Part shown: piece by piece, positions 8,716 to 55,960 of the stretch
How the letters are laid out: each line of letters begins with the position of its first letter
Numbering within the stretch: the stretch's first letter is position 1
Source of the DNA: a virus
Virus record (IMG/VR): IMGVR_UViG_3300000976_000010
Reading direction: 5' to 3' (one strand)
Length of the DNA: 64,000 nt
Position numbers and translations under genes: made by a program
The notes under the pieces: generated by a model
Databases searched by the model: none
What the model was told of the DNA's origin: nothing
What the model saw: the letters and a program-made list of their open reading frames with translations, nothing else

Positions 8716-9444
8716 ATGAAAGTAAGTATAGAAGACCTTAACAACCTAGTAAGTACAGGGACAGCCGAAAATATTGAGTTGGCCTATATGCTCTGTGAGA
8801 GTCAGAGAATAGATTTTGATAGTCTTGAGAGTGTACAGAAATATGTTCCTATTATTAATTGGTTAAATAATTATCATCATGGTTATCAGGATATAAAAAT
8901 GGGATTAATTAAATGCCTTGGTTTAGAAGTGCTAGATTTAGAGTTCCGTATAACAGAAAAATTGCCTCACTCTTTAGGATTATTGAATACACTAAATGCT
9001 CTTTTTTTAGATGACAATTTTTTAACAAACTTGCCCGATTCATTGGGAGAACTGTTACTTTTAGAAATCCTTAGTCTAAGCGGTAACAAATTACTAAAGC
9101 TGCCCGAATCAATTGGAAACTTAACGAGCTTGGAGTCTCTTATATTGTACAATAACAGATTGATTGAGATCCCCGATTCAGTATGCAATCTATTAGAATT
9201 GGAAAATTTAAACTTAGGTAAAAATAGCTTGACGTTTTTGCCCAAATCCATAGGGAATTTAACCAATTTGAAAAGGTTAAGTCTATACAATAACAAATTA
9301 ATAAAACTGCCCGAATCACTTGGAAATTTAAAAAATATAACACGGTTAGACCTGCGCCAAAACCCTCTAGAATTAGGCGAATCTATGACTGCAAAGGTGA
9401 TAAGTAAACTAAAGTTGAGGGGTGTCAACATTGAATTAGATTAA
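8716..9444 (+). CDS. Leucine-rich repeat protein (LRR copy 1, intact)
   Basis: Repeated 23-aa units LxxLxLxxNxLxxLPESIGNL after a helical N-terminal domain; C-cap NPLEL. Confidence 0.95.
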   Translation: MKVSIEDLNNLVSTGTAENIELAYMLCESQRIDFDSLESVQKYVPIINWLNNYHHGYQDIKMGLIKCLGLEVLDLEFRITEKLPHSLGLLNTLNALFLDDNFLTNLPDSLGELLLLEILSLSGNKLLKLPESIGNLTSLESLILYNNRLIEIPDSVCNLLELENLNLGKNSLTFLPKSIGNLTNLKRLSLYNNKLIKLPESLGNLKNITRLDLRQNPLELGESMTAKVISKLKLRGVNIELD

Positions 9445-10106
9445 ACTTCAAAACGCACGAAGAATTGAACTATTTGGTAAAAAAGATTTATCCGAAACAA
9501 TGAGGTGGCATACATTCTTTGTGAGACTCAGGCTATAGATTTCCTTGAGGCATTAGAGTGTGTATAAGTATGTTCCTATTATTAATTAGTTGAGCAATTA
9601 CTCTGAAGGCCGTGGCGAGATTAAACTTCAATACCAAAGGCTATCAGACTTAAGAGCCTCGACTTAAGCAACAAAAAATAAAAGGCTTCCTGAATCAATT
9701 GGCACACTAACCAATCTTTTTTGGCTTGATTTAAGTGAAAATTATTTGGAGACCATCCCCGATCCATTCGCAAATTTGATAAATACGAAAGCACAATACT
9801 TAGAAAATAATGACACACAGCATTTTCATGAGGCAATTTTAAGCATAAACACATTAGAACTTTTAGTTCTGTCTAATAATATTATAACAACACTTCTATC
9901 TTCAATTGGTAATTTAAGCTGTATTAAAATATTAACTTAGGGAAAAATAAAATTGTAAATTTGTCCTTATCTATAATTAATTAAAAGGGTTAGAAGTTCT
10001 TTCATTGCACAATAGCCCATTAGACTTAACAGAACCGACGATACCGCGTGTGATAGATGAATTAGGGAATAAAAGGAAAGGGGGTGTTAATGTAACATTG
10101 TATTAG
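9445..10106 (+). pseudogene. Decayed tandem paralogue of LRR copy 1 (copy 2)
   Basis: Fragments EVAYILCETQAIDF, KYVPIIN*LSNY, LPESIGTLTNLFWLDLSENYLETIPD, PLDLTEPT..VI, GGVNVTLY*; multiple stops and frameshifts; tatgttcctattattaat identical to copy 1. Confidence 0.8.
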
Positions 10107-10145
10107 AGACATCGCTAAATTTATTTTTAACTTTTTTTTCAATAG

Positions 10146-10177
10146 CTTGGTCGATTCACTTTTTAGCCTTATATTGT
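10146..10177 (+). promoter_or_regulatory. Bacteroidota sigma-type promoter
   Basis: CTTG-N20-TATATTGT upstream of ATG 10205. Confidence 0.45.
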
Positions 10178-10204
10178 GGTATTAATAAACACAACAACAA
10201 AATA

Positions 10205-10660
10205 ATGAAAACATTAGAAGACTTGAACGCGCTTGTTGATATAGGCAAAAAGGACAATATTGAGTTAGTCATTCAATTCTGTGAAGAACAGGACTTGTTA
10301 TTTGAAGAAATTGATACTGTGAAGGAGCATGTTCCTATTATTAAGTGACTGTCCCAATTAATTGATGTTCAAGTTTATGTTAGAGATAAGACTCCCGAAC
10401 CACAACTTTTACAAACTCATGCCCCTATGAAATCGAATGCAGTTTTCTTTTTTCAATTCAACATAAAAAACTACAGAAATAATTAAGCTCAATTTATCAG
10501 GATTATATGGTCAATATAATGGAACGTATGACACTTATTTTTAGCGAAAAAAAATTCAAAAACGCCCTGAGTCGCTATTAAAATAATAATATTTGGATGA
10601 CATATACTTAGAATACCACATCCATTAGAATTAACAGAACCAATTAAAAGTGCGTGTTAA
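10205..10660 (+). pseudogene. Truncated LRR-family paralogue (copy 3); the 47-aa N-terminal domain is still an intact ORF (10205-10348)
   Basis: MKTLEDLNALVDIGKKDNIELVIQFCEEQDLLFEEIDTVKEHVPIIK* aligns with the N-terminus of copy 1; remnant HPLELTEP C-cap near 10620. Confidence 0.75.
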
Positions 10661-10712
10661 GATCAGGCCAAAGTATTAATTTTATCTTATTTAATCAGTA
10701 ACAATATACAAA

Positions 10713-10964
10713 ATGCTCAAAAATAAATATATCTATTGCTCTGATTGTGATTCAGACTTAGATGGACGGAATCATATACGAAGTTCAGAAAATAAAATTG
10801 GTTGGCCTATTGACTTTTACAAATGCCATGTTTGCGGAACCACAACCACAGATATTACATTCCCCAAAGATGCTAAACTTGTCAAAATTGAGGAGATTAG
10901 GTGCAATCCCGATAAGTATTTATTAAAAGAAGGTGAATACTTAAGCTTGGAATGTCTTAAATAG
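10713..10964 (+). CDS. Small zinc-finger-like protein
   Basis: CSDC...CHVC pairs in 83 aa. Confidence 0.6.
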   Translation: MLKNKYIYCSDCDSDLDGRNHIRSSENKIGWPIDFYKCHVCGTTTTDITFPKDAKLVKIEEIRCNPDKYLLKEGEYLSLECLK

Positions 10965-10986
10965 TCTTAAACACAACACAAAAAAA

Positions 10987-11649
10987 ATGAGCGAATTAAG
11001 AACAAGTACACGTGTAATAAGACTATTTAGATGTCTCGAAGATATTGAGCGCGGAGTCATCCATGTACCCTCATTTCCTAGAGGAGATGTATGGTCTGAT
11101 TATCAGAAAATTTCCCTGTTTAATAGCATAAAACGCGGCTTTCCGATTGGTATGTTTGTGTTTTGGAACCCCAAGAAAAGTGAAACATCGCACTGTGAAA
11201 TACAACAAATAGGTGGATACCAATTACCAAAACAAGAAGCTCACTCTTATATAATAGATGGCTACCAACGCCTTTCCGTTCTTTTGGGTTGTTTGGTTGA
11301 TCCAAAAACCACACATCTACAGCGAACGGAAGGTTATTATGAGAATGGCTCCGATCTTTGTTATGATTTAGAAAACGATTCGGTAGTTAGTCGGAGTAAT
11401 GATGAAGACTTTTTTTGGAGAATACCACTCCATGAATTGGTTGGAGGAGGTAAATACTTCGACTTTACGGATCGTTTGGGGGTGGAAAAAATTTCTCAGG
11501 AAATGGTAGATATATATACAAAACGTTATAAAAGTTTTAGCAAGAGGTTGTTTGAATGTGAGATACCAATCACTTACATGGAAGGCGGGGACTTACAGGA
11601 GACTGAGGATCTATTTAGTCAATTGAATGGAGCTTTGTCTAATCTTTAA
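10987..11649 (+). CDS. Stand-alone DUF262 (GmrS/ParB-Srx-like) domain protein
   Basis: VPSFPRGDVWS..QKISLFNSIKRGFPIG and YIIDGYQRL match the DUF262 motifs PxFQRxxVW and DGQQR, with substitutions. Confidence 0.8.
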   Translation: MSELRTSTRVIRLFRCLEDIERGVIHVPSFPRGDVWSDYQKISLFNSIKRGFPIGMFVFWNPKKSETSHCEIQQIGGYQLPKQEAHSYIIDGYQRLSVLLGCLVDPKTTHLQRTEGYYENGSDLCYDLENDSVVSRSNDEDFFWRIPLHELVGGGKYFDFTDRLGVEKISQEMVDIYTKRYKSFSKRLFECEIPITYMEGGDLQETEDLFSQLNGALSNL

Positions 11650-11659
11650 AAATGATAGT

Positions 11660-12387
11660 ATGAAAGTTTTGATAGCATGTGAAGAGAGCCAACAGATATG
11701 CAAAGCCTTTCGAGAATTGGGGCTTGAAGCTTATAGTTGCGATATACAAAATTGTAGTGGCGGAAAACCTGAATGGCATATAAAGGCGGATGCGCTAATA
11801 GAAGCATACAGTGAAAAATATGATTTAATGATTGCACATCCACCATGTACATACATGAGTAACGCAGGGGCGCGTTGGATGTATCCAAGTGCAGGTAATG
11901 TTGATGCACAGAGATATGAAAAATCCATAATAGCTAAAGATTTTTTTTGAAACTTATGAACGCACCAATTAAACACATTTGTATAGAGAATCCCATCCCA
12001 CTTAAAATCGTGGGTCTTCCTAAATACAGCCAAGTAGTTCAGCCATACGAATATGGACATCCCTTTAGTAAAAATATACAAGACCTAAATGAATTGGAAG
12101 TTCGTTTTGCCAAAAAGAAAATGCGAGGATTATACTTTTTAAATCCTAGGCTCAATGATATTATTCCTGTAATTGATAGCACTACAAGACATTTCGGTCG
12201 AGAGGAATCCATTTTGCTTATATTAGATTTATTTGAATTGGCATACTACAGAGGTGAAGTTTTGGATGTTGAGCTTGAATTTTTTTTTGAAAAATATTTC
12301 TCTGATAGTGTTCTAAGAACTTTAAGTTGTGGTAAAAAAATATTAAAACATGCACAAGACATGTTAACTGAATTAAACTTTAAATAG
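11660..12387 (+). pseudogene. Phage-type C5 cytosine methyltransferase, frameshifted at a T8 tract and fused to an unrelated helical domain
   Basis: MKVLIACEESQ, AHPPCTY, then a frame change at T8 (11941-11948) to IENPIP..QPYEYGHPFSK, then a switch near 12070 to sequence similar to ORF 13234-13632. Confidence 0.75.
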
Positions 12388-12388
12388 A

Positions 12389-13213
12389 ATGAAAACTAAA
12401 AAAATAGTAAGTGTTTTTGATGGTTTATCTTGCGCCCAAATCGCAATTAATAACTTGGGTTGCAAAGACTATGAATACATAGCATCCGAAGTTGACAAGT
12501 ATTCCATGAAGGTGTGTCTACAAAACTATCCTAACACCAAGCAATTGGGATCAATTGAAGACATAGACTTTACAAAAATTAAAGACACGTATCTATTAGT
12601 TGGAGGGAGTCCATGTCAATCTTTTTCTAGACTAGGAAATGGTGCAGGCTTTGATGGCAAAAGTAAACTGTTTTTTGAATACCTTAGAGCATTAGATGAA
12701 ACAAAACCAAAATATTTTCTTCTAGAAAATGTGTCAATGAAAAGGGAATGGAGAGATGAGATAACAAAACTAGTCGGTGTAGAGCCAATATCTTTGAATT
12801 CGGCTAAACTTTCTGCCCAAAACAGACCTAGATTATATTGGACTAATATTCCCAATATACTAGAGCCTATTGATTTGGGACTAAAAATAATTGATGTAGT
12901 CAATCCAATATTCTCTGACAAGTATCCAAAATTTTTGGATGGAAAATTTGGCAATAAAATTAGAAAGGATTATATAAAGCTACCAAATCAAAAGGCTTCT
13001 TGCTTGACAGCTTCAATGTATAACGGCCAAACACCTAGTTTTTGCAAGAATGAGAAGGGCGAAATTTACAAATATACTGCCGAGGACTTGGAGGCACTAC
13101 AGACAATACCTAAAGGGTATACCAATCACGTTAGTAAAACTCAGCGAATGAAAATGATTGGAAATGGAATGACCGTTCGCGTAATAGAGCATTTATTATC
13201 CAATATATTTTAA
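12389..13213 (+). CDS. DNA (cytosine-5)-methyltransferase
   Basis: SVFDGL (I), GGSPCQSFS (IV), LLENV (VI), QNRPRLYW (VIII), KMIGNG (X). Confidence 0.92.
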   Translation: MKTKKIVSVFDGLSCAQIAINNLGCKDYEYIASEVDKYSMKVCLQNYPNTKQLGSIEDIDFTKIKDTYLLVGGSPCQSFSRLGNGAGFDGKSKLFFEYLRALDETKPKYFLLENVSMKREWRDEITKLVGVEPISLNSAKLSAQNRPRLYWTNIPNILEPIDLGLKIIDVVNPIFSDKYPKFLDGKFGNKIRKDYIKLPNQKASCLTASMYNGQTPSFCKNEKGEIYKYTAEDLEALQTIPKGYTNHVSKTQRMKMIGNGMTVRVIEHLLSNIF

Positions 13214-13233
13214 TCCAACCCCAAATAGAACAG

Positions 13234-13632
13234 ATGAATCATTATGCCTTTGGCAAGCACACGCCACTAAACGAAGAGATTAAAAGTAATTTCACGCTAT
13301 ATTTAAACGAAGTTCCCATACCTAAATTAGAAAAACATGACATTCGATATGCCAAGTGTATAGGGGAAGAACACTTTATTGATATAATGCCTACTAATGA
13401 CATTATGCTCAATTTTGAAAGTAATTTGGCAATAGTGGGTATGATGAGAATATACATAGAACTTAAAATTTTATTTGCTAGAGCTTTTTATCGCGGTCAG
13501 GTTGGTATTAGTAAAATAGACGAGCTGTACGATTTGTATCTATCAAACCATGCTATAGATAAAATTTTCATGGAAGGTAATATCTTAAATCATGCCCATA
13601 TACTTTTACATGAATTGGGCTATTATGGATAG
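13234..13632 (+). CDS. Hypothetical protein, paralogue of the domain fused at 12070-12387
   Basis: LFARAFYRGQV..ILNHAHILLHELGY versus LFELAYYRGEV..ILKHAQDMLTELNF. Confidence 0.65.
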   Translation: MNHYAFGKHTPLNEEIKSNFTLYLNEVPIPKLEKHDIRYAKCIGEEHFIDIMPTNDIMLNFESNLAIVGMMRIYIELKILFARAFYRGQVGISKIDELYDLYLSNHAIDKIFMEGNILNHAHILLHELGYYG

Positions 13633-13835
13633 TATTTTTGTTTAACATGTAGTACTTAATATTAATTAACCTAAAATTAATATGAAAAGAATCAGAACGA
13701 TATGTTATTGCTGAAAGTCAATGTGTTAATAACTTACTTTAAAATAGTGCTCTTAAGGGGCTTGCAAAATAACATTGACATCTTTTTATCGTTATTGAAC
13801 AGCAATATAAAATTACTAATAATATAAACATTAAA

Positions 13836-14792
13836 ATGAAGGTAGAGCCTATATTAAAAGAAAACGAGAGTAGATTTGTAATGTTCCCTATTGAACATTC
13901 TGATATTTGGGAATTTAGAAATAATGCCATTGCTTCCTTTTGGACTGTTGATGAGTTAGATTTGGTTGACGACATAGAGGATTGGAATAATAAACTCAAT
14001 GACAATGAAAGACATTTCATTAAGCATGTTTTGGCTTTTTTTGCAGCATCCGATGGTATCGTGAACGAGAATCTATGTATCAATTTCTATAGTGATGTCC
14101 AAATCGCGGAAGCGCGTTCATTCTATGCAGCTCAGATTCAAATTGAAGATATACATGCAGAAACTTACAGTCTACTGATTGATACCTATATATCCGATTC
14201 TAAGGAAAAGGTAGATTTGTTTAATGCTATTACAACTCTTCCATGCGTTTCAAAAAAAGCTACTTGGGCATTGGATTGGATAGAAAACTCACCTTCATTT
14301 GCACACAGGCTAATTGCATTTGCTGTTGTGGAAGGCATTTTCTTTTCGGGTTCTTTTTGTGCTGTTTTTTGGCTAAAGCAAAGAGGGTTGATGAACGGTT
14401 TAACCTTCTCCAATGAGTTAATAAGCAGAGACGAGGGGTTACATTGTGATTTTGCTTGTCTTTTGTATAGCAAGCTAGTCAATAAATTAAGCCCAACAGA
14501 AATTCAAAGGATAGTGAGTGAGGCTGTTGAGATTGAGAAGGAATTTGTCACCAACGCGCTCCCCGTTTCATTGATTGGGATGAACTCCGAAACGATGTGC
14601 GAATATATAGAATTTGTATCAGACAGACTATTAGTTGATTTGGGTGTACCTAAATTATTTAATGCGGAAAATCCATTCCCTTTCATGGAATCCATAGCAC
14701 TTAACGGAAAAACAAACTTCTTTGAAAGGGAGGTGTCGGAATATCAATTGGGTATAGATACGGAAATTGATGAGTCATCATTTGGTAATTAA
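13836..14792 (+). CDS. nrdB: Ribonucleotide reductase class Ia beta subunit
   Basis: [45 protein letters not shown]. Confidence 0.97.
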
Positions 14793-14835
14793 TGAGTCAT
14801 CATTTGACAATTAATGTGTATCCATTTGGTAATTA
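14770..14835 (+). repeat. Three degenerate 22-bp tandem repeats spanning the nrdB stop codon
   Basis: atgagtcatcatttggtaatta / atgagtcatcatttgacaatta / atgtgtatccatttggtaatta. Confidence 0.85.
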
Positions 14836-14859
14836 ATAATTTATTACCATTGTAATAAT

Positions 14860-14898
14860 AATAGTCGCTGTTGATTCAGCGACTATTTATTTCTTTTA
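14860..14898 (+). terminator. Intrinsic terminator after nrdB
   Basis: aatagtcgctg-ttgatt-cagcgactatt followed by a T-rich tail. Confidence 0.75.
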
Positions 14899-14915
14899 AT
14901 AAAACATAAGCAATC

Positions 14916-15428
14916 ATGCACCATTTTTTTTCAACAGTAGTATTTATAATGATTGCTTTGGCATCACTATACCTCTCATTAGCTCTTAACAATATACAAA
15001 ATTATAGATCAAACAAGGCTTCAATGAATGAAGCAAAACAGATTAAAGTGAATAATCTGCTTGCTTTTTACATACTCGCTCTTGTTTTTATCTTGAATAT
15101 GAGTGTACGAGTCGGGCAGTGGATTTACCCCAATGAAATTGGAGGGTTTCATCTCCATGGTGTTTTTATATCTGCTGCTTTATGTGTAGGAGCTTCAATT
15201 TTATCCTCTAAAAATATTTCACACTTCTGTGCCACCTTCCTTTTTATTGTCCCTTCCTTTTTCATGCTAAAATCTAGCCTTTATGTTGTTTTGTTAGCAC
15301 CATTTTTTCTATCACTTGGTTCAATATTGGCTCATGTACTTTTTGCTAGACTGACTTTATTCAAAATAATACAGAATTCAATAACTAATAGAGTGAATAG
15401 AGATATATCAAAATATATTGAATCATAG
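14916..15428 (+). CDS. Multi-pass membrane protein
   Basis: 170 aa with about five hydrophobic segments. Confidence 0.7.
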   Translation: MHHFFSTVVFIMIALASLYLSLALNNIQNYRSNKASMNEAKQIKVNNLLAFYILALVFILNMSVRVGQWIYPNEIGGFHLHGVFISAALCVGASILSSKNISHFCATFLFIVPSFFMLKSSLYVVLLAPFFLSLGSILAHVLFARLTLFKIIQNSITNRVNRDISKYIES

Positions 15429-15460
15429 AATAATATTCTTGATAAAAATATAACACAAAT

Positions 15461-24597: not shown

Positions 24598-24671
24598 GGT
24601 TCAGTAGCTCAGTTGGTCAGAGCATCGGACTCATAACCCGTTGGTCGTGGGTTCAAGTCCCACCTGAACCA
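24598..24671 (+). tRNA. tRNA with CAT anticodon (elongator Met or Ile2); CCA not encoded
   Basis: GGTTCAG/CTGAACC acceptor stem, GCTC/GAGC D stem, CTCATAA loop, GTGGG-TTCAAGT-CCCAC T arm. Confidence 0.9.
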
Positions 24672-24823
24672 CAATTATGTTTTAAGCCACCCTCGCCTCT
24701 GTCTAGTAGAAGAAAGGTTCCGATCAAACTTTTTTGGACATGCTCAATTTTGGGTGGCTATCTTTTAAAGCTTATTTATTTAAAGACACTTTTACTTAAC
24801 ATTTCAACATAAAAAAGCATAGT

Positions 24824-25193: not shown

Positions 25194-26180
25194 ATGAAAA
25201 ATAAAAACATTGAAATTGAAACTATCTTAGAAGAATTAAGCAAGGAAAACATTGATACCTTCTTTGAAATAGCGGAACGAGAAAGTATAGACATTGATAA
25301 AATTCCTTTGGTCGCTGAATATAAAGAGTTGATAGAATTTCTAAATAATTCACTAACAACAGATCTAAAATTTAGAGAGGGTCTTTTTAAAATAATGAAC
25401 TGTAAACATCTTCACTTTGATTTTGGGAGTATGTTTGAAATGATTAAGGTAATTCCCGAAAGCTTTCATAGGTTAAAAAAGTTGGAACACTTAACCATTT
25501 ATGATGCAGAATTTGAAAAATTTCCAAACAGCTTTCATAGGCTAAAAAATCTTAGAACTCTAGCATTATGTGGGTGTAATATTAGAACTCTCCCTAAAAA
25601 TTTTAGTGAGTTTATCAATTTAGAACATGTAAATTTAAGGGAAACTAGAATTAAAAATTTCCCCAATGAATTGCTCAAAATGGAAGGGCTGACTTCTTTA
25701 AATTTATCAGATACTCCAATAGAATCTCTCCCCGATAACATTTCAAATCTCAAAAAAATAAGAACACTTGTATTAAAAAATACTAAAATTACTAGTATTC
25801 CAAGCAGTATCTCAAAAATGGATTCCTTAGAGTATTTAAACATATCCAACAATAGCATAGACTCATTACCAACCAAACTTCCGCCTTTTTTAGAGTCTTT
25901 AAATGTTTCTAACACTAATATATCTGTGTTGCAAGTAGAGCAATTGAAAAATTTGGAAAGACTAATTTTAAAGGGTTGTCCTATCAATAAATTGAATGAT
26001 AATATTTTTAATTTGTGTTCTTTGGAACACTTAGATATTAGAGAAACTAACGTAGAAAACCTCCCAATCGCCAAGTTGTCATCTATGGAAAATTTACGTT
26101 TAATAGAAACGGAGGGGAGTGGTGTCGATTTGAATGATAGTTGTTATGACCAAATAAAAGAGGTTATTACAATAACATAA
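25194..26180 (+). CDS. Leucine-rich repeat protein (LRR copy 4, intact, about 10 repeats)
   Basis: LxxLxLxxTxIxxLPxxIxxL units; N-domain ENIDTFFEIAERESIDIDKIPLVAEYKELIEFLNN is similar to copy 1. Confidence 0.93.
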   Translation: MKNKNIEIETILEELSKENIDTFFEIAERESIDIDKIPLVAEYKELIEFLNNSLTTDLKFREGLFKIMNCKHLHFDFGSMFEMIKVIPESFHRLKKLEHLTIYDAEFEKFPNSFHRLKNLRTLALCGCNIRTLPKNFSEFINLEHVNLRETRIKNFPNELLKMEGLTSLNLSDTPIESLPDNISNLKKIRTLVLKNTKITSIPSSISKMDSLEYLNISNNSIDSLPTKLPPFLESLNVSNTNISVLQVEQLKNLERLILKGCPINKLNDNIFNLCSLEHLDIRETNVENLPIAKLSSMENLRLIETEGSGVDLNDSCYDQIKEVITIT

Positions 26181-48728: not shown

Positions 48729-51038
48729 TTAAGCACCACACATCAAACATTCATCAGAGTTTTCCAATGAACACTGCCGACTTAGTGCATTTTGTTTCGA
48801 TTCCATTTCTGTCATTAGTGTTTCTATAGTACCCTCCACACCCAATCCCGTCAATCCCTTTCGAGTTGTTTCCCTTCTTAGGTAGTATTGAAGTGTTTTT
48901 AAGCCTTTAGACCAACCATAGAAAATGGCAGATGTCCAATTGTTTGCACTTGGCTTTGAAATAAATAGATTTAGGCTCTGAGATTGACAAGTAAACGAGG
49001 CTCTATCTCTGCTCATGTCTATTAAAACGGATGGTTCTATTTCAAAGGAAGTTTTGTAAACATCTTTAATCCATTGGGGGAAGGGTAAATTTTGTACTGA
49101 ACCACCACTTAACAACAATGCTTTTTGTGTTGTTTCATCCCACAATCCCAATTCCTCTAAATCTCTAACAAGGTGAGGGTTTATTACAGTAAACTCGCCT
49201 GTTTTGGTTCTTCTAAGGTAGAGATTATAAGTGTAGGGTTCAAAGCATTCATTATTCCCCAATAATTGAGATGTGGTAGCTGTTGGTGGGTCGGTCAAAA
49301 GAAGGCTATTACACAAACCATATTTTTTAATATCGCTTCTAAGTGCATCCCAATCCCACATGTCAAATGTCGGTTCATCGGGAAAATTGGAAGTATTGTA
49401 GCCCGATTTTTTCCAAAGATCAAATGCTAATTCCCCATTAGCATAACAGCTTTTATCAAAATCTTTGAATTTTTCTTGAGTACCACCTTTACAAAGTTCC
49501 ATGCTTGCGGTGTATGAAGCATGTAACATTGTCTCGCGTATATTTCGATTTATTTCTATTGATTCTTTGCTACCAAACTCCACTCGCATAAGACAGAAAA
49601 GATCGGCTAGACCTTGACATCCTAGACCAATGGGTCGGTGTCTCATATTTGAACGCCTAGCATTTTCTGATGGGTAGTAATTGGTGTCAATCACAACATT
49701 AAGACCCTTGATAATATACTTAACAGTTTTGTATAGTTCTTGGTAGTTGTATTTTTTATCAATCTTGTCATAAAAATGATTTAAAGACACGGTTGCTAAG
49801 TTGCATACAGCGGTTTCCTCCTTGCTACTAAATTCCGTTATTTCGGTACACAAATTGGAACACTCTATTGTTCCTGCATAAGACTGAGCATTCATTTTAT
49901 TAATAGGGTCTTTGTTGACAATATACGGTGTGCCTGTTTCCCCTACTGCAACCGTTATGTGCTTCCAAAGATCACGTGCCTCTATCTGTTTAGTGTATAT
50001 CCCGTTTCTTTCATAATATTCATAACGCTCTTTGAACTCCGTGCCAAATAAGCTCACTAAATCAGGACATTTACTAGGACACATTAATGACCACTTCTCA
50101 TTTTTCTTAACCCTTTCCATGAAGAGATCGTTGATATACAAAGAAAGGTATAGATCACGAGTTCTTAGTTCCACCTTTCCGTGATTCTTTCTTAGGTCAC
50201 AGAAAGCAAAAACTTCGCCATGCCAAATCTCTAAGTATGCAGCAAAAGAACCCTTTCGCCTTCCTCCTTGATTGACAGCCCGTGCTGTGGAGGCATAGGT
50301 TTTTAAAAATGGAATTATCCCTGTACTAGGACTCCCCGTTGATGGAATTAGCGAACCTTTAGCGGTAACATTTGTAAAATTGAAACCTATACCTCCTGCA
50401 CGTTTTGATATTAAAGCCATCTCTAGCACCTTTTCGTATATCCCACCAATACTATCAGGAACAGTAAGTAGGAAACATGATGATAGCTGCCCCTTTATTC
50501 TACCACCATTAATTAGTGTGGGTGTAGCAAATGTATATTTTTTATTACATAGGTCTTCGTATGCTTTCAGGACACTATCTATACCATAGACATGATTTGT
50601 TGTTATAGCCTCACGCATGAATAATTGGAACAAATCTTCTGTGACTCCGTCTGATTTAAGTAAATAAACATCCTTTGCCGTGCAAACACCAAAAACTGTA
50701 AATAAGAAATGACCTTTATTAAATTGCTCAATCTTTTCATTATAAGAGTTTTCTAAATCGTTGATATTTTCGTTGTAAAATTTAACGAAAGTATCGTTTA
50801 GTTGATTACCGAAAAAATTTATATACTCAATTAGTACAGGGCTTTGAGAAATCAATTGCTCATTTGTGATATAACCTGCCAAATCTGCATAATCAGGATG
50901 TATGGTTGTTTTTGAAGATATTGTATCAATTAAAAAATCATAATTTATATCTTCACCTTTATACCCTCTCTTGTATTCTGCTTCTATTTTAGAAAAATTG
51001 CATTTGTTGAATAGGTATTTATGCTTGGTTGTGAACAT
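48729..51038 (-). CDS. nrdA: Ribonucleotide reductase class Ia alpha subunit
   Basis: FATPTL, QLSSCFL, RRKGSFAAYL, CSNLCTEI, VCNLA, PTATTSQLLG, GLKTLQYYLR, C-terminal CLMCGA. Confidence 0.97.
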   Translation of the reverse strand: MFTTKHKYLFNKCNFSKIEAEYKRGYKGEDINYDFLIDTISSKTTIHPDYADLAGYITNEQLISQSPVLIEYINFFGNQLNDTFVKFYNENINDLENSYNEKIEQFNKGHFLFTVFGVCTAKDVYLLKSDGVTEDLFQLFMREAITTNHVYGIDSVLKAYEDLCNKKYTFATPTLINGGRIKGQLSSCFLLTVPDSIGGIYEKVLEMALISKRAGGIGFNFTNVTAKGSLIPSTGSPSTGIIPFLKTYASTARAVNQGGRRKGSFAAYLEIWHGEVFAFCDLRKNHGKVELRTRDLYLSLYINDLFMERVKKNEKWSLMCPSKCPDLVSLFGTEFKERYEYYERNGIYTKQIEARDLWKHITVAVGETGTPYIVNKDPINKMNAQSYAGTIECSNLCTEITEFSSKEETAVCNLATVSLNHFYDKIDKKYNYQELYKTVKYIIKGLNVVIDTNYYPSENARRSNMRHRPIGLGCQGLADLFCLMRVEFGSKESIEINRNIRETMLHASYTASMELCKGGTQEKFKDFDKSCYANGELAFDLWKKSGYNTSNFPDEPTFDMWDWDALRSDIKKYGLCNSLLLTDPPTATTSQLLGNNECFEPYTYNLYLRRTKTGEFTVINPHLVRDLEELGLWDETTQKALLLSGGSVQNLPFPQWIKDVYKTSFEIEPSVLIDMSRDRASFTCQSQSLNLFISKPSANNWTSAIFYGWSKGLKTLQYYLRRETTRKGLTGLGVEGTIETLMTEMESKQNALSRQCSLENSDECLMCGA

Positions 51039-51062
51039 TCTTTATTAATTTTTAGTGTTTAA

Positions 51063-51069
51063 TATGTAC
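51063..51069 (-). promoter_or_regulatory. GTACATA motif upstream of nrdA
   Basis: 24 nt upstream of ATG 51038. Confidence 0.45.
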
Positions 51070-51109
51070 TACTACAACGCTTAAAAAAAATAAAAAATTA
51101 AGGCTTTGA

Positions 51110-51141
51110 TTTGGTTTTTTAATTTATTATCTGTACTTTTG
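51110..51141 (+). promoter_or_regulatory. Consensus Bacteroidota sigma promoter driving clamp-polymerase
   Basis: TTTG-N20-TACTTTTG, an exact match to TTTG-N19-21-TAnnTTTG. Confidence 0.7.
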
Positions 51142-51178
51142 AAAAAATGATGATCTAATTCTTAAAAATTGCACTTAA

Positions 51179-51985
51179 ATGAATATAAAAAACTTTCAAG
51201 CCCTTATACAAGGCACAAAAATTAATGGTGTTGATTCTGATACTGTATATTTTGTAACTCCTGAAAAAACTTATGCAACTAACGAAAACCAAGGCGTTAG
51301 TCTAATTCAAACTTATGAAACGTCAGATATTTTTGATAACGTAGAAACGAATTTTACATTTTCCTTTTTCAATATCAAAAAGGTGTTAGATAAAATTAAG
51401 GGTCTTTTATCGGATGATCCTGAAAACATAATAATGGATTTTGAATTTGTAGATAGTAAATACAACGGATTCAAAGAAATTCGGAGAACTTCTATAAAAC
51501 GGAAGAGTCCGAAGTTGCAATTTCATTTACCTCACCCATCCGTTTCTTATACCCTAAAAAGTGCTACAAGGACACCACACTCAAGCAAGTTTAACTTAAA
51601 AGGTGATATTATAGATATTACTGATGGTGCGTTATTTATGGAAAATCTTTCTAGGATTGATTCTGCTGATAAGAGTGGCAAACTTAATCATATTAGCTTT
51701 TCTAACGAAAATGGTTTGGGAACGGTCATTGCGAGATGTGGAGATGATTATTTTGAGTGTGGTTTGTCAGAACTTACCAAACCATTTAAAGTTTATAAAA
51801 GAGATTTGGAATCTTTAAAAGCGAGGCCATTTAGTATAACAGTTGGAGAAGGTGCTATAATAATTGAGCAGGGGACTACAAGATTCCATTTGCCAACATC
51901 TACCATGAATGAAGAGCTTGAGGCTTCACAAATGGCAGCAATAGAAAATCTTTGTGGTTTAACAGATATTGATTATGGATATTAA
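51179..51985 (+). CDS. Putative sliding clamp (gp45-like)
   Basis: 268 aa, two-domain alpha/beta pattern, overlaps the polymerase gene; assignment from size and context. Confidence 0.45.
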   Translation: MNIKNFQALIQGTKINGVDSDTVYFVTPEKTYATNENQGVSLIQTYETSDIFDNVETNFTFSFFNIKKVLDKIKGLLSDDPENIIMDFEFVDSKYNGFKEIRRTSIKRKSPKLQFHLPHPSVSYTLKSATRTPHSSKFNLKGDIIDITDGALFMENLSRIDSADKSGKLNHISFSNENGLGTVIARCGDDYFECGLSELTKPFKVYKRDLESLKARPFSITVGEGAIIIEQGTTRFHLPTSTMNEELEASQMAAIENLCGLTDIDYGY

Positions 51986-53483
51986 TTTCCCCCCTAGAGA
52001 AAGTGTAGGAGAAACTGATTTGATGTATTGGGATTTAGTAGAACCGCTAAATCCCACATACGACAATGTGAAGGAGATTATTAAGCCCTATAACGAAAAA
52101 GGTGAGAAAACAGCAGAATTCTTAGAAGCGGTTAAGGCGGTTAAAAAGTTAGGGCTAGTTGAAGCAAAAGAACTTCTTGTTAAGATGAAAAATGCCAAAG
52201 CTTTTTATTCCGAATTGGAGCAAAATAAAAAATTGGATTCAAATGGATTGTATGGGTATGTTGGGGCTTCCTTTGCTGAATACACATCTATGAGAGTCGC
52301 GGGAGATATTACAGCAGAGGGGCGTAATATTTTTAAAATAATGGATACTGAAACTACAAAATTGTTAGACAATGTTTTAGTTAATTACAAGGGGGGCAAA
52401 AAAGGGTTATTGGACATATTCGTTGATTTTAAGGAAGCCAAAGAGAGGTTTGGAGATATTATCAGAGTTAATGAAAATCCTAAAAAAATACCACACCTAG
52501 TAGAATCAACACAAGTATGTGAATATAAATCACGTGGTAGTAGAGGTAATCCACATGTTGAATATGTAGGTAAAACCACAAGACACACGGTACTTTACGG
52601 AGACACGGATTCTGTTTGTATAGGATTTGAGAATATATGTCGCTCTTATGGCATTATTCCTGAATCCGATGATCCAAAGCGTGTGTCTAGGTTTGTTGAA
52701 TGGTTTTGTTTGAAAGTATTAATACCTTTTTATCATAAAATTATACAAAACTTGTGTGATAAGAGAAATGTTACCAATACTTATATACTAGAATGTGAGC
52801 AGATTTTAGAAAAAATGCACTTATATGCAAAGAAGTGTTATTGCAGCTCTCTCGCTATATTGGATGGGAAGAGTGTTTATGAAAAGGGCGATGTTAAAGC
52901 AGGGGGGATTGTTATTAAAAAGACATCCTATCCGAAAATAATAAGAAAAAAGCTCAAGGATTTGGAAAATATTATGCTACGAAGCGTGAATAAAGACAAG
53001 AATAATTTGGATTATATCACCAAATTGATGAGCAAACATATTGATATTTTTTCAAATAGACCTGTTGAAGAACTCTGTAATACACAAACAGTAAGAAAGT
53101 TTAGCGAAAAAACAGAATTGGTTAATGGTTACTATAAAACCATAAAGGGAGCAGGCGTTAATGAAAAGGGGATGGTCATGTACAACAATCATGTGATAGC
53201 TAACAATCTTAATATACCACTTTTAGGAAATGGTTCTAAGGTTAAGACATATCCGCTACTTTCAGATGGTGGAGAAGAAGAGTATTTTTCTTGGGATATT
53301 GATAGTAGTGAAAGTCCACCATCTTGGTCTCCAAAGCCAAACTTTGAAACTTTGATATACAAGAAGTACACAAAGAATGCTATACTTTACGTTACCACGG
53401 AATATCCACATTTGATAGGTAGAGAGGATTATCTTAGAGACCCAAAAACATTTCCAAAATTATTTATGAAAGTTCCCGATTAA
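51975..53483 (+). CDS. Family B DNA polymerase, C-terminal subunit of a split enzyme
   Basis: Motif B KLDSNGLYG, motif C YGDTDS, KKCY; lacks the exonuclease domain and motif A (DxxSLYPS). Confidence 0.88.
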   Translation: MDINFPPRESVGETDLMYWDLVEPLNPTYDNVKEIIKPYNEKGEKTAEFLEAVKAVKKLGLVEAKELLVKMKNAKAFYSELEQNKKLDSNGLYGYVGASFAEYTSMRVAGDITAEGRNIFKIMDTETTKLLDNVLVNYKGGKKGLLDIFVDFKEAKERFGDIIRVNENPKKIPHLVESTQVCEYKSRGSRGNPHVEYVGKTTRHTVLYGDTDSVCIGFENICRSYGIIPESDDPKRVSRFVEWFCLKVLIPFYHKIIQNLCDKRNVTNTYILECEQILEKMHLYAKKCYCSSLAILDGKSVYEKGDVKAGGIVIKKTSYPKIIRKKLKDLENIMLRSVNKDKNNLDYITKLMSKHIDIFSNRPVEELCNTQTVRKFSEKTELVNGYYKTIKGAGVNEKGMVMYNNHVIANNLNIPLLGNGSKVKTYPLLSDGGEEEYFSWDIDSSESPPSWSPKPNFETLIYKKYTKNAILYVTTEYPHLIGREDYLRDPKTFPKLFMKVPD

Positions 53484-53500
53484 TTTTTCATGGTGGTATT

Positions 53501-53540
53501 AATAATCCCCAAGACACCTTTGTGTGTGTTGGGGGTTATT
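53501..53540. terminator. Bidirectional terminator between the polymerase and the LRR locus
   Basis: aataatccccaa...ttgggggttatt hairpin. Confidence 0.65.
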
Positions 53541-53585
53541 TGTTAGTAAAATCTAATTCCTTAAATGAAATCTATCTATTAAATA

Positions 53586-54522
53586 CTAATAAACTCCTAA
53601 TATTGTATACATAAAAGTGTTATCCACATTATCCTTCAAAGTATAAATAACATGTGATGTTGTTGCATCTGTTAAATCTATTGGGTTTTTATTCAAGCTA
53701 AACCAATCCAAATTAACCAAATTTGAAATTGATTTAGGCAATTTTATCAGACTATTATTAGACAAGTGAAGCGTGTCTAAGGATTTTAGTCTACCCATTG
53801 AATCGGGTAATTCCTTTAATCTATTATCATCAACCGATAAGTTTTTAAGATTACTTAATTTGCCTATTGACTCAGGCAATGTTATCAGACTATTATTAGA
53901 CAGGTTAAGAGTTCTAAGAGATAATAGCCTCCCTATTGATTCGGGCAACTCCTTTAAGCTGTTATCCTTGGCCGTTAAATAAATCAAATGAACAAGTCTA
54001 CCTATAGATGTTGGTAACGTTTTTAAATCATTGTTTGATACGGGAAGCTGCTTCAAAGAGGAAAGCCTCCCTATTGATTCGGGCAACTCCTTTAAACTGT
54101 TGTTCCATAATCCAAGATTCTCCAAAAGTGATAGATTGCCTATTGATTCGGGCGAAAACTGTAATTTATTGTCGCTTAAAAAAAGACCCCTCAAGGAGGT
54201 GAGTTTCCCTATTGACTCGGGGAATAAATGCCAAATCATTTTCTCCCAAAGCCAATATTTCTAAGTTAACCAATTTACCTATTGAATTTGGGACATAATT
54301 TATCCCCATTTCACTTAGATCAACCTCTTTAAGTGCCATACAATATTCAACAGCCTTCTCAAAAGGCTTTCGTTTGAGCCGCTTGTATTTTTTAGAAAGC
54401 CAAGAAATTAGTTCTCTCTATCCTTCCTCGTCTTCAACAGATTCAAAAAAGCGATGGTTGTTACTTCGACTTTCAAATTTGTCAACAGGTGATTCGCTTA
54501 GATAACGTTTTCCGCTTTCCAT
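53586..54522 (-). pseudogene. LRR copy 6: tandem paralogue of copy 5 with a nonsense codon and a frameshift
   Basis: MESGKRY..FESRSNNHRFFESVEDEEG*RELISWLSK (TAG at 54418-54420), extra C at 54219-54222, then about nine LRR units; ORF 53586-54239 is the remnant. Confidence 0.85.
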
Positions 54523-55960
54523 TTCTAGTTTCTCTAATATTTCGTGGCAAATCAAAAGTACGCAAATAACCTTTTAATTTAGAAACAACCCATTCGGTTG
54601 TTGGATCTTTTATGTCTAGTGGATTATCAGACAAGCTAAGATGATCCAATTTTACTAAACCGCCCATTGATTTTGGCAAATATTTTAATCTATTGTCCTG
54701 TACGTAAAAATCCCTCAAAGCAGTGAGGTTGCCTATTGATTCGGGCAATTCCTGTAATTTGTTATCGGGGAGCACGAGGATGCGAAGTGATGTTAAATAT
54801 CCAACCGTTTCGGGCAATCTTATTAATTCATTCCTTCCTAAATAAAGTCTAATGAGGGATGTTAGCTTACCGATTGATTTTGGTAAAATGGTCAGTTCAT
54901 TCTCCTGTACGTAAAAATTCTTCAAAGAAGTGAGGTTGCCTATTGATTCGGGCAATTCCTGTAATTTGTTTCGATGTAATTTTAGATCCCTCAAAGAAGT
55001 AAGCTTGCCTATTGATTCGGGCAATTCCTGTAATTTGTTGTCATGTAATACAAGTACCTCCAATCGAGAAAGGTTGCCTATTGATTCGGGCAATTCCTGT
55101 AAGCTATTGTTGGACAAAACTAGAACTCTCAGTGATGGAATTGCACCGATTGTATCAGGAAGAGAGGTTAATTTATTCCCATCCAAAAACAGCATATCCA
55201 AATTTGACAATTTACCTATTGAATTTGGAAGTTGCTTCAAGCCCATTAAGCGTAGGTTAACCTCGGTAAGACCTATACAATAATCAATTGCATCCTCCAA
55301 AGTCATAAATTCAAGCTGTCTGTGTCTTTTAGAAAGTAAGAGAATTAGCTCTCTCCATTGTTCCTCATCTTCAACAGATTCATCAACGCGATGATTATTA
55401 ATTCGACTTTCAAGCATGACCATTTCATCATAAAGCTCCATTCCATCAATGAATAGACGGGAACTATATTGACCTCCAAATCTTGATTTTGGTTGTCTAT
55501 TCAAAACCTCTGTGGCTCTCGTCTTAACACTTTTTAGATTTCCTCTATAAACCTCTTCAAAAAAGCAATGAGAACCATCGTAATACTTTATTTTGAAAAT
55601 GTGAGCCTGTTTTTGGTTATCAAAATCTAATTTTGGGAATAATCTATTCCCCCTACTTTTGTACTTTTCAATCATGGAAATAACTCTTGCTTTAATATCC
55701 GAATCAATGATATAATCATCCTCATAGTCTTTTGCCATATCAACTACCAAGGTTTTAATTCCATTCGTTAAACCTACTGTTTTTAACTTTCTTTCAACTT
55801 CTTTTATTTTTTCCTTGCTTTCGTTATCAATGTGCATGATAGCAAGATTTGTTAATAATTCAACAGCCACATTTTCGTTGGCGTATTGATTTTTGTAGTA
55901 TTCCTTTGTGTATGATGATTCTTTTTCATCAAGTCTTTGTTTTATTTTATGTAGACGCAT
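54482..55960 (-). CDS. LRR copy 5 (intact): ~200-aa unique N-terminus + about 9-10 LRR units
   Basis: LQELPESIGNL repeats; C-cap NPLDI. Confidence 0.95.
   Translation of the reverse strand: MRLHKIKQRLDEKESSYTKEYYKNQYANENVAVELLTNLAIMHIDNESKEKIKEVERKLKTVGLTNGIKTLVVDMAKDYEDDYIIDSDIKARVISMIEKYKSRGNRLFPKLDFDNQKQAHIFKIKYYDGSHCFFEEVYRGNLKSVKTRATEVLNRQPKSRFGGQYSSRLFIDGMELYDEMVMLESRINNHRVDESVEDEEQWRELILLLSKRHRQLEFMTLEDAIDYCIGLTEVNLRLMGLKQLPNSIGKLSNLDMLFLDGNKLTSLPDTIGAIPSLRVLVLSNNSLQELPESIGNLSRLEVLVLHDNKLQELPESIGKLTSLRDLKLHRNKLQELPESIGNLTSLKNFYVQENELTILPKSIGKLTSLIRLYLGRNELIRLPETVGYLTSLRILVLPDNKLQELPESIGNLTALRDFYVQDNRLKYLPKSMGGLVKLDHLSLSDNPLDIKDPTTEWVVSKLKGYLRTFDLPRNIRETRNGKRKTLSKRITC
54731..55102 (-). 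repeat. Near-identical 27-bp cores with 69-bp period inside the LRR coding sequence
   Basis: gcctattgattcgggcaattcctgtaa at 54731, 54938, 55007 and 55076. Confidence 0.9.

What the first reader, a model, noticed from the sequence alone, without database searches (positions are those of the whole stretch)
8716..55960. Phage-encoded LRR gene family (six copies, three loci) in birth-and-death evolution
Seen in sequence: intact copies at 8716, 25194 and 54482-55960, and decayed tandem copies at 9445, 10205 and 53586-54522. All share a helical N-cap (e.g. KYVPIINWL / EYKELIEFL / QWRELILLL, with AxxxCxxLxxxDL in most copies) before 23-aa LRRs, and five share a PL(D/E)L-type C-cap. The extreme N-terminus is swapped: a short ~50-aa type at loci 1-2 and a ~200-aa type at locus 3. 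Established: LRRs are variable protein-binding scaffolds, abundant in some Bacteroidota (Saprospiraceae, Microscilla) and in immune receptors, and uncommon in tailed phages; ankyrin-encoding sponge phages are a precedent for phage repeat proteins acting on a third party. Inference: a diversifying repertoire of binders, either anti-defence decoys/inhibitors of host immune sensors or effectors that help the host against eukaryotic predators or hosts.
Basis: partly seen in the sequence, partly recalled or inferred. Interest (0 to 1): 0.85.

Follow-up and report, generated by a model that had tools for sequence, protein, structure and literature searches.

The report
Huge phage's expanding LRR binder family
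A marine, alga-associated huge phage spends about 6% of its DNA on a fast-turning-over family of small leucine-rich-repeat binding proteins, and a complete 368-kb relative has 27 to 28 of them, which has not been described for tailed phages and gives no clue yet to what they bind.

Summary
The window has three intact LRR genes (8716-9444, 25194-26180, 54482-55960) and three decayed ones (9445-10107, 10205-~10650, 53586-54522).

The "genome" is a 137-kb fragment, about 37% complete, of a huge myovirus-like phage from an alga metagenome. Its 148-kb source contig holds at least 13 copies. Three further contigs from the same sample carry more. LRR is the phage's only multi-copy gene family.

A complete 368-kb relative (sheath 66% identical, colinear) has 27-28 copies at 14 loci, or 6.4% of its DNA. 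One copy, outside the window, is a positional orthologue next to a baseplate-wedge gene. Most other copies are lineage-specific expansions. Copy 6 fuses an LRR array to the N-terminal part of a conserved non-LRR phage gene. This shows birth-and-death evolution and conservation in a related phage, and it rules out recent neutral host pick-ups.

The proteins are LRR-only: 23-aa SHOC2/Leptospira-type units with family-specific caps. They have no enzyme domain, no signal peptide and no membrane segment.

Function is inferred, not shown. Most likely they are a repertoire of binders acting inside the infected cell, with a minority wired into late or baseplate operons. Virion display is a serious rival. 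A role as eukaryote-directed effectors is poorly supported.

The parts
8716..9444 (+). LRR copy 1, intact, 242 aa. It has a 5-helix N-cap (aa 5-68), 7 LRR strands, and a C-cap helix plus strand.
   Evidence: AF2 model has pLDDT 97.6. Foldseek matches Leptospira LIC12234 and SHOC2. A G>A change at 9231 in other samples is synonymous.
9445..10107 (+). LRR copy 2, a pseudogene and tandem duplicate of copy 1. Its parts lie in three frames with stops.
   Evidence: Its N-cap is 67% identical to copy 1. Contigs of two other samples leave the window after 10015.
10205..10650 (+). LRR copy 3, a pseudogene. The 47-aa N-cap ORF (10205-10348) is followed by degraded repeats and a PLELTEP C-cap remnant.
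25194..26180 (+). LRR copy 4, intact, 328 aa and the most divergent. It lies after tRNA-Met, between a tube-like gene and tail genes. There is no counterpart at this site in the 368-kb relative.
   Evidence: One low-depth variant contig in another sample carries K66stop plus a 1-nt insertion, while another sample keeps it intact.
53586..54522 (-). LRR copy 5, a pseudogene and partial tandem duplicate of copy 6. It has an in-frame stop, a frameshift and a residual 217-aa ORF. It contains a 138-bp (two-unit) repeat at 53728-54101.
   Evidence: It is 50% identical to the copy 6 LRR part.
54482..55405 (-). LRR copy 6, LRR array and C-cap (aa 186-492). It includes a 69-bp unit repeat at 54922-55102.
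55406..55960 (-). LRR copy 6, N-terminal ~185-aa non-LRR domain. It is homologous (~31% identity over the whole pairwise alignment, almost all matches in the N-domain) to the N-part of a 353-aa non-LRR gene at the same site in the relative.
   Evidence: It is otherwise an orphan. The single-sequence AF2 model is unusable, pLDDT 38.

Best explanation
WHAT IT IS
The six window copies belong to a multigene family specific to one huge-phage lineage. The members are small, soluble, LRR-only proteins. Each has 4-10 units of 23 aa of the SHOC2/Leptospira type, between a family-specific helical N-cap and a helix-plus-strand C-cap.

The carrier is a ~370-kb myovirus-like phage from an alga-associated marine community.

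HOW THE FAMILY TURNS OVER
- Tandem gene duplication.
- Duplication of single 69-bp repeat units.
- Fusion of LRR arrays to other N-terminal domains.
- Pseudogenisation.
Both this phage and its complete 368-kb relative built their own expansions. About 6% of each genome is LRR-coding. Only a few old orthologues are kept.

HOW IT MOST LIKELY WORKS (inferred, not shown)
The proteins have no catalytic domain, so they act by binding. Each copy offers a different concave surface.

Most copies lie in long arrays in regions without the phage's late-promoter-like motif. None has a secretion signal. The majority are therefore most likely made in the infected cell. There they would bind host proteins or proteins of competitors. 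They could block or decoy defence sensors, or act as adaptors in host takeover. The turnover would be driven by an arms race.

A minority sit directly behind late genes: the conserved copy beside the baseplate wedge, and perhaps copies 4 and 6. These may instead be built into or onto the virion.
For: IDENTITY
- Phage genes: TerL, sheath, portal, protease and MCP-like. MCP kin are pT24 and PAU.
- The record is 37% complete. It is colinear with a 368,109-bp DTR genome, with 78 of 171 ORFs shared at a median 49% identity.

FAMILY SIZE
- 11 loci in the record and 13 on the source contig.
- It is the only multi-copy family apart from one two-member pair.
- The relative has 27-28 ORFs at 14 loci, 6.4% of its DNA. 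This record has 5.9%.
- Sister contigs from the same sample carry tandem arrays. Their non-LRR genes match the relative's LRR-rich part.

STRUCTURE
- AF2 pLDDT is 97.6.
- Nearest solved folds are Leptospira LRR proteins and SHOC2.
- Only LRR Pfam domains are found.
- 0 of 47 proteins have a TM-like segment.

BIRTH AND DEATH
- Decayed copies.
- Unit repeats.
- Own-genome best hits for nearly all copies, and one reciprocal orthologue pair.
- The copy 6 fusion.
- A 69-bp unit skip and an inactivated copy 4 variant in other samples.

CONSTRAINT
- The orthologue pair is colinear at 38% identity, with conserved concave residues in units 5-8.
- Substitutions between strains in intact copies are synonymous.

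TIMING
- GTACATA lies within 120 nt upstream of 0 of 36 LRR genes, against 83 of 670 other ORFs (one-sided p = 0.0098).
- The big arrays of the relative lie in stretches with no gene that has the motif within 120 nt upstream.

NARROW DISTRIBUTION OF THE N-CAP
- 21 hits in 1.84 billion proteins.
Against: - There are no expression data. No RNA run was listed.
- No partner is known, and there is no hit to any known defence or anti-defence family.
- No LRR anti-defence protein was found in the papers searched.
- Many copies sit in operon-like arrays, so lack of their own late motif does not fix their timing.
- The one clearly conserved orthologue is in a late baseplate-wedge unit. This points to the virion rather than the cytoplasm for at least that copy.
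- The host is unknown.
Confidence: 0.42

Rival explanations
1. Virion-displayed binder set. The LRR proteins dock through their conserved N-terminal part onto the baseplate, fibres or head. They would then serve as interchangeable adhesins or receptor-binding modules for bacterial or algal surfaces, like the 'fibre cloud' proposed for phage Goslar.
For: - The only reciprocal orthologue (G000 109601-110533 and relative 212904-213845) directly follows a 71%-identical baseplate wedge gene (phrog_219) that has the late motif. This forms a conserved 2-3 gene unit.
- Copy 6 follows a gene with the late motif, and the orthologue of its N-domain in the relative has its own late motif.
- Copy 4 lies between tube-like and tail genes.
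- Another copy of the relative follows a head-tail adaptor-like gene.
- A conserved N-part plus a variable binding C-part is the usual layout of receptor-binding proteins.
- Kin phages PTm1 and PAU carry unusual head or tail fibres (PMC7824862).
- Goslar has paralogues with an N-module plus LRR/beta-helix domains, assigned a role in host recognition (10.64898/2026.04.21.720040).
Against: - 0 of 36 copies have their own late motif.
- About 19 of 27 copies of the relative lie in arrays far from structural genes.
- The N-cap folds as an integral cap of the solenoid rather than a free docking module.
- There is no trimerisation or fibre domain, and no DUF7941.
- pT24 and PAU have no LRR genes.
Confidence: 0.28
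2. Eukaryote-directed effectors. These would be eukaryote-like proteins carried by the phage that help its bacterial host deal with the alga or with grazers, as proposed for ankyrin-encoding sponge phages.
For: - The phage comes from an alga metagenome and recurs in plant-labelled and seawater metagenomes.
- LRR families are otherwise typical of giant viruses of eukaryotes and of symbiont 'eukaryotic-like proteins' (papers).
- The repeats resemble SHOC2 and RSU1.
Against: - There is no signal peptide, no TM segment and no secretion-type C-terminal domain in 47 proteins.
- The phage has the gene set of a large lytic myovirus, and the 'provirus' label looks like an artefact. A lasting benefit to the host is therefore hard to see.
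- The proteins could reach a eukaryote only through lysis.
Confidence: 0.1
3. Little or no function. The repeats spread by unequal recombination as tolerated ballast, or are recent pick-ups from a Bacteroidota host.
For: - 4 of 11 copies in the record are decayed.
- Copy 4 has an inactivated variant in one sample.
- Cellular look-alikes that include the N-cap region occur in Microscilla marina.
Against: - The family is present and mostly intact in a relative with ~50% protein divergence.
- An orthologue is kept colinear.
- Open frames of 200-490 aa in 34% GC DNA retain all scaffold residues, and the fold is predicted with confidence.
- Changes between strains are synonymous.
- The N-cap was not found in 185,579 species genomes, with the limited patterns used.
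Confidence: 0.06

Closest known systems
Bacterial and eukaryotic 23-residue 'SHOC2-like' LRR proteins (Leptospira LIC12234, LIC11098 and LIC10831; human SHOC2, RSU1)
   Same: They share the repeat length and consensus (LxxLxLxxNxLxxLPxxIGxL) and have 35-40% identity to the Leptospira proteins. Foldseek E-value is about 1e-13, TM 0.6-0.7 over the solenoid. They are binding-only scaffolds.
   Different: The phage family has its own helical N-cap and its own helix-plus-strand C-cap, which none of these match. It lacks the signal or lipoprotein leader seen in some other bacterial LRR hits. It is phage-encoded and multi-copy.
LRR paralogue family of the 462-kb uncultured phage LR756500.1
   Same: It is a huge phage with a distantly related major capsid protein (27% identity). 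It has 7 dispersed LRR-only paralogues with the same 23-aa unit and family-specific conserved ends. The alignment to copy 1 runs into the C-cap.
   Different: Its N-terminus (MKYIKEYEDF...) and C-terminus (...ANADDFGFFDN) are different, and a non-LRR neighbour shares them. No copy has the N-cap of this family.
Repeat-protein multigene families of giant viruses of eukaryotes (LRR, ankyrin, F-box in Klosneuvirus, Marseillevirus and others)
   Same: These are large viral genomes with lineage-specific expansions of binding-repeat genes. Nearly all viral structural matches to copy 1 are such proteins (PMC5753266).
   Different: Those viruses infect eukaryotes, and their repeats are often joined to F-box or other eukaryotic adaptor domains. 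Here the virus is a tailed phage and the proteins are LRR-only.
Ankyrin-encoding sponge phages ('ankyphages')
   Same: A phage in a eukaryote-associated community carries a eukaryote-like binding repeat. This comparison rests on my own knowledge; no paper was read here.
   Different: The repeat type is different. From memory, the ankyrin protein is secreted. Here there is no secretion signal, and there are dozens of paralogues rather than one gene.
Goslar DUF7941 family (conserved N-module plus carbohydrate-binding, hydrolase or LRR/beta-helix domains)
   Same: It has several paralogues per huge phage, with a conserved N-part and a variable binding C-part that sometimes includes LRR. A host-recognition role is proposed (10.64898/2026.04.21.720040).
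   Different: There is no DUF7941 here. Goslar belongs to another phage lineage, the nucleus-forming Chimalliviridae. Virion presence is untested here.
LRR proteins of Leptospira LE1-type phages
   Same: These are the only other phage records with LRR matches, annotated as 'leucine rich repeat protein'.
   Different: They match the repeats only, up to 38-45% identity, and have no shared caps. They occur in a host genus that is itself rich in LRR genes. The phage type is unrelated.

Membership tests
Leucine-rich repeat superfamily, 23-residue SHOC2/Leptospira-like class (Pfam LRR_8, LRR_14) | Tandem units with LxxLxLxxN(x)L and a fixed period | tested here: met
   Pfam E-values range from 1e-13 to 1e-33. 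The 23-aa register holds across 51 units, with L1, L4, L6, N9, L11, L14, P15 and L21 conserved.
Leucine-rich repeat superfamily, 23-residue SHOC2/Leptospira-like class (Pfam LRR_8, LRR_14) | Curved solenoid with a parallel beta-sheet on the concave face and capping elements | tested here: met
   The AF2 model of copy 1 has pLDDT 97.6, with 7 short strands alternating with short helices plus N- and C-caps. Foldseek matches 4tzh, 4u08 and 7tyg.
Secreted eukaryote-directed repeat effectors (ankyphage type; T9SS or Sec cargo) | N-terminal signal peptide or other export signal | tested here: not met
   No hydrophobic N-terminal stretch or TM-like segment in 47 family proteins by hydropathy scan. 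No dedicated signal-peptide predictor was available.
Secreted eukaryote-directed repeat effectors (ankyphage type; T9SS or Sec cargo) | Effect on a eukaryotic cell | not testable with these tools
   Needs an experiment.
LRR plus NEL (IpaH/SspH-type) or other LRR-enzyme effectors | Catalytic domain fused to the LRR | tested here: not met
   Only LRR families were found in 4 window proteins and 9 proteins of the relative. The copy 6 N-domain has no Pfam hit.
Goslar-type DUF7941 virion fibre family | N-terminal DUF7941 module | tested here: not met
   No such Pfam hit.
Goslar-type DUF7941 virion fibre family | Presence in purified virions | not testable with these tools
   The phage is uncultured. 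Indirect timing evidence is mixed.
Diversity-generating retroelement targets | Reverse transcriptase with template and variable repeat | tested here: not met
   No RVT_1 in either genome. Intact copies show few differences between samples, and the two seen are synonymous.
Known anti-phage defence proteins (NLR/Avs-like and others) | Match to a defence-system model, or an NTPase or effector domain | tested here: not met
   No PADLOC hit for 8 copies.
T4-type head-internal proteins | Short free N-terminal capsid-targeting tag ending in an (I/L)xE cleavage site | tested here: inconclusive
   The N-terminus of the main type is helix 1 of a confidently folded cap, which argues against a free tag. 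The protease's cleavage rule in this phage is unknown. Such a tag-like N-terminus is seen in LR756500.1, but not here.

The most novel reading that the evidence does not exclude
A clade of huge marine phages maintains a germline repertoire of dozens of LRR binders. The repertoire is remade in each lineage by gene and repeat-unit duplication, fusion and loss. It would be a viral counterpart of LRR-based recognition repertoires. Its use would be either to neutralise many different host defence or sensor proteins from inside the cell, or to serve as a swappable set of virion adhesins that widens what the particle can stick to.
Probability: 0.3. Interest if true: 0.9.

Novelty: new variant of a known kind. 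Interest (0 to 1): 0.72.

Why it matters
Large paralogous families of binding repeats are a hallmark of giant viruses of eukaryotes and of immune receptor repertoires. They are not a known feature of tailed phages.

Here two related huge phages each give about 6% of their genome to such a family and rebuild it independently. That pattern points to strong, changing selection on what the proteins bind.

If the targets are host defence proteins, this would be a new and very broad class of counter-defence. If the proteins are on the virion, it would be a new kind of modular host- or surface-recognition system.

Either way, the copies are compact, confidently folded and naturally diversified binders. 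They come with a clear comparative framework (orthologue, young expansions, pseudogenes, one fusion), which makes the question testable.

The case also shows a practical pitfall. Bacterial-looking repeat genes probably caused part of a phage contig to be trimmed as 'host' and the record to be labelled a provirus.

Tried and rejected
SEARCHES THAT FOUND LITTLE OR NOTHING
- Word-index search with the N-cap region alone found nothing.
- Pattern scans for the N-cap in viral, genome and metagenome collections gave one unrelated 59%-GC locus and otherwise nothing. The first attempt, with the loose alignment, failed for lack of conserved columns.
- MCP as a single query found no IMG/VR relative. The sheath did. 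A sheath alignment found no further clade members.
- Copy 6 N-domain gave no homologue by word search, Atlas, Pfam or the phage collection. The single-sequence AF2 model was unusable.
- N-cap profile against PDB sequences gave nothing significant.
- The earlier-findings sequence look-up found nothing.

REGULATORY SIGNALS
- Sigma-70-type promoter and terminator scans around the three loci were at chance level.
- Bacteroidota-type TAnnTTTG showed no enrichment.
- K-mers enriched upstream of LRR genes turned out to be C-cap coding sequence of the preceding tandem copy.

EXPRESSION
- No RNA-seq run was listed.

COMPLEX PREDICTION
- Predicting the conserved orthologue with the neighbouring baseplate wedge gave no verdict. 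It is no evidence either way.

SELECTION
- dN/dS between paralogues was not attempted. Identities are 30-65% at the protein level, so synonymous sites are saturated.
- Concave positions being more variable between units is normal for LRRs. It was not taken as positive selection.

CONSIDERED AND DROPPED
- DGR-type mutagenesis: no reverse transcriptase.
- Integrated prophage of a bacterial chromosome: the trimmed 10 kb has phage-like composition and further family members, and the relative is a DTR genome.

Full report
1. THE OBSERVATION

Intact copies. Translation of the three stated intact genes gives clean LRR proteins of 242, 328 and 492 aa. Pfam LRR_8 and LRR_14 E-values range from 1e-13 to 1e-33, and no other domain is found.

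Decayed copies:
- 9445-10107 carries recognisable N-cap, repeat and C-cap pieces in three different frames, with several stops.
- 10205-10348 is a 47-aa N-cap ORF followed by wreckage that still spells a PLELTEP C-cap.
- 53586-54522 starts within the equivalent of copy 6's N-domain. It has a stop where copy 6 has tryptophan, then a frameshift, then a residual 217-aa ORF.

Repeat unit. The repeats are 23 aa in strict register: LxxLxLxxNxLxxLPxSIGxLxx, over 51 units.

Rarity. Chance is not an issue. Only 3 of 50,697 phage records match. None of 80 other viral loci (1.2 Mb) matches.

2. WHAT CARRIES THE FAMILY

The window lies in a single 137,393-bp record of 33.8% GC.

It encodes a large terminase, sheath, portal, prohead protease and an MCP-like protein. 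The MCP-like protein's nearest cultured kin are the jumbo phages Tenacibaculum pT24 and PTm1 and Sphingomonas PAU, at about 30% identity.

The record is classed by IMG/VR as a provirus with a CheckV completeness of 37%. It begins exactly at a start codon because about 11 kb were trimmed off. A contig from the source run restores 10 kb of this. The restored part has the same GC, contains two more LRR genes, and none of the ORFs scanned there matched a host-type family.

The sheath has a 66%-identical homologue in a 368,109-bp IMG/VR genome with direct terminal repeats and 100% estimated completeness. The record is colinear with roughly half of that genome. 78 of 171 ORFs are shared, at a median 49% identity.

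So the window belongs to a fragment of a ~370-kb phage, and the provirus label is probably an artefact.

The DNA comes from an 'algae metagenome'. Near-identical strains occur in two 'plant metagenome' runs, with traces in seawater.

3. SIZE AND SPREAD OF THE FAMILY

In the record. A tblastn and ORF scan finds 11 loci, five of them outside the window. With the restored 10 kb there are 13. An all-against-all comparison shows LRR is the only gene family with more than two members. LRR-similar DNA is 5.9% of the record.

The N-cap elsewhere. An exhaustive profile search with the ~70-aa N-cap against 1.84 billion proteins gave only 21 hits. The close hits are short metagenomic proteins.

Sister contigs. 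Contigs for three of these close hits come from the same run as the phage and hold tandem arrays, one of them frameshifted. A fourth close hit lies on a contig from an unrelated run.

Several lines tie the same-sample contigs to this phage:
- One of them has the same k-mer depth as the phage contigs.
- Their non-LRR genes have homologues in the part of the 368-kb relative that the record lacks. These are an NA37-like gene at 47% identity, a 962-aa late gene at 63% and an HslV-like peptidase at 41%.
- In the relative, the NA37-like gene lies between two LRR arrays.

I conclude (inference) that these contigs are further pieces of the same phage.

The relative. It has 27-28 LRR ORFs at 14 loci, 6.4% of its DNA, with little decay. 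Most start with the same kind of N-cap (LLxSGxxxNIELAxxLxxSN). The profile hits eight of them. Nine proteins examined have only LRR Pfam domains.

4. HOW THE FAMILY EVOLVES

Orthology. Best-hit analysis shows one reciprocal pair between the two phages: record 109601-110533 and relative 212904-213845. They are 38% identical and colinear over N-cap, about nine units and C-cap.

Both genes directly follow a 71%-identical baseplate wedge gene (phrog_219) that carries the late-promoter-like GTACATA motif.

Lineage-specific expansion. Almost every other copy is closest to paralogues in its own genome:
- a subfamily of 11 in the relative, at 50-63% identity;
- the group of copy 1, copy 9 and the sister-contig copies here, at 44-66% identity.
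This means separate expansions after the split.

Site-specific gain or loss. Copy 4 has no counterpart at its site in the relative.

Fusion. Copy 6's first ~180 aa align to the N-part of a 353-aa non-LRR gene at the same position in the relative, between the DNA polymerase and a 614/799-aa gene. Identity is ~31% over the whole pairwise alignment, with almost all matches in this N-domain. Copy 6 is therefore a fusion of a resident gene's N-part with an LRR array.

Unit duplication. A 69-bp repeat in copy 6 and a 138-bp repeat in copy 5 show recent unit duplication.

Variation between samples:
- A diverged homologue of copy 1 in another sample lacks exactly one 69-bp unit.
- Contigs of two samples diverge from the window inside pseudogene 2.
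- One low-depth variant of copy 4 carries a stop and a 1-nt insertion. Another sample keeps copy 4 intact.
- Two substitutions seen in intact copies 1 and 4 are synonymous.

Together this is birth-and-death evolution, with purifying selection on the intact copies.

Conserved surface. In the orthologue pair, identity is 64% at scaffold positions, 27.5% at concave positions and 22% at convex positions. Concave positions 5 and 7 are conserved in units 5-8. This suggests a retained binding patch (inference).

5. WHAT THE PROTEINS ARE

Fold. An AF2 model of copy 1, built with a 15-sequence family alignment, has pLDDT 97.6. It shows five N-terminal helices, seven LRR strands, and a C-cap helix plus a final strand.

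Nearest solved structures. These are Leptospira LRR proteins (35-40% identity), SHOC2 and RSU1. The matches cover the solenoid only.

Nearest predicted structures:
- In AlphaFold DB clusters, Microscilla marina LRR proteins align across the N-cap as well. This is a hint of an old Bacteroidota source.
- In the viral structure library, almost all matches are giant viruses of eukaryotes.

Other properties:
- No TM-like segment in 47 proteins, and pI values from 4.3 to 9.7.
- No PADLOC hit.
- No reverse transcriptase in either genome.
- PHROGs places the copies in phrog_6688, of unknown function.

6. HOW THEY MAY WORK

With no catalytic domain, they must act by binding. Two readings remain open.

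For action inside the infected cell:
- None of 36 LRR genes has GTACATA within 120 nt upstream, against 83 of 670 other ORFs (p = 0.0098).
- The large arrays of the relative lie in long stretches with no gene that has the motif within 120 nt upstream.
- Locus 1 of the window sits among methyltransferase genes.
- Fast lineage-specific turnover is what arms-race genes show.

For virion display:
- the conserved wedge-LRR unit;
- copy 6 behind a gene with the late motif;
- copy 4 in the tail region;
- the fibre-rich virions of kin phages (PMC7824862);
- the Goslar precedent of paralogues with a conserved N-module and LRR/beta-helix parts (10.64898/2026.04.21.720040).

I rate intracellular binders, with a late or virion-linked minority, at about 0.4, and a mainly virion-displayed set at about 0.3.

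Eukaryote-directed effectors are unlikely without any export signal. Functionless ballast is unlikely given the conservation.

A complex prediction of the orthologue with the wedge protein gave no verdict and is not used as evidence.

7. COMPARISON AND NOVELTY

The repeats are ordinary members of the SHOC2/Leptospira-like LRR class. The caps, the phage setting and the copy number are not ordinary.

The only comparable phage case found is the 462-kb LR756500.1. It has seven dispersed LRR paralogues with different conserved ends.

The papers searched, including a comparative survey of 224 jumbo phages (PMC7824862), describe no LRR expansion in a tailed phage.

I class it as a new variant of a known kind: viral repeat-protein multigene families, here in a tailed phage. 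The function is still open.

Noticed in passing
L005:2704-4400 and L011-L015 (LR756500.1): All seven LRR paralogues of this 462-kb phage, and a non-LRR neighbour, share an N-terminus MKYI(K/Q)xY(E/K)DF(I/L)xE(A/S) and a C-terminus ...ANADDFGFF. From memory, the N-terminus resembles the T4 capsid-targeting tag of internal proteins, with an (I/L)xE cleavage-type site. This may be a head-packaged cargo family.
   Followed up: partly
G000 whole record; L016:1-10000: IMG/VR labels the record a provirus at 37% completeness. The trimmed 10 kb has phage-like GC and two more LRR genes, and none of its ORFs scanned matched a host-type family. The close relative is a 368-kb DTR genome. The provirus call is probably an artefact of bacterial-looking LRR genes.
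   Followed up: yes
L010:6521-7468 versus the relative at 196277-197245: An IS1595-family transposase is 80% identical between the two phages, while the genome median is 49%. This suggests an insertion sequence moving among these huge phages. The same contig carries a HigB-like toxin with an XRE-type neighbour, RadC and an HslV-like peptidase.
   Followed up: no
window 24598-24672: tRNA-Met (CAT) lies just upstream of LRR copy 4. Many unrelated metagenomic contigs map to it.
   Followed up: no
window 20679, 23676, 28380, 35600 (+); 42067, 44174, 51063, 58115 (-): GTACATA sits 25-80 nt upstream of the sheath, tube-like, tail, MCP-like and protease genes. It is also found upstream of their orthologues in the 368-kb relative (52 of 535 ORFs there). 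It looks like a conserved late-promoter-like element.
   Followed up: partly
G000 107908-110533 (window 79652-82277, outside the window): A baseplate wedge gene (phrog_219, 71% identical between the phages) and the LRR orthologue form a conserved two- to three-gene unit behind the GTACATA motif.
   Followed up: partly
P0010 and P0019 (metagenomic proteins): The first two helices of the N-cap resemble a ~33-aa unit (TKDNLPLAxxLCTDKELxFP) that is tandemly repeated 7-11 times in unrelated long proteins. The N-cap may derive from a helical repeat.
   Followed up: no
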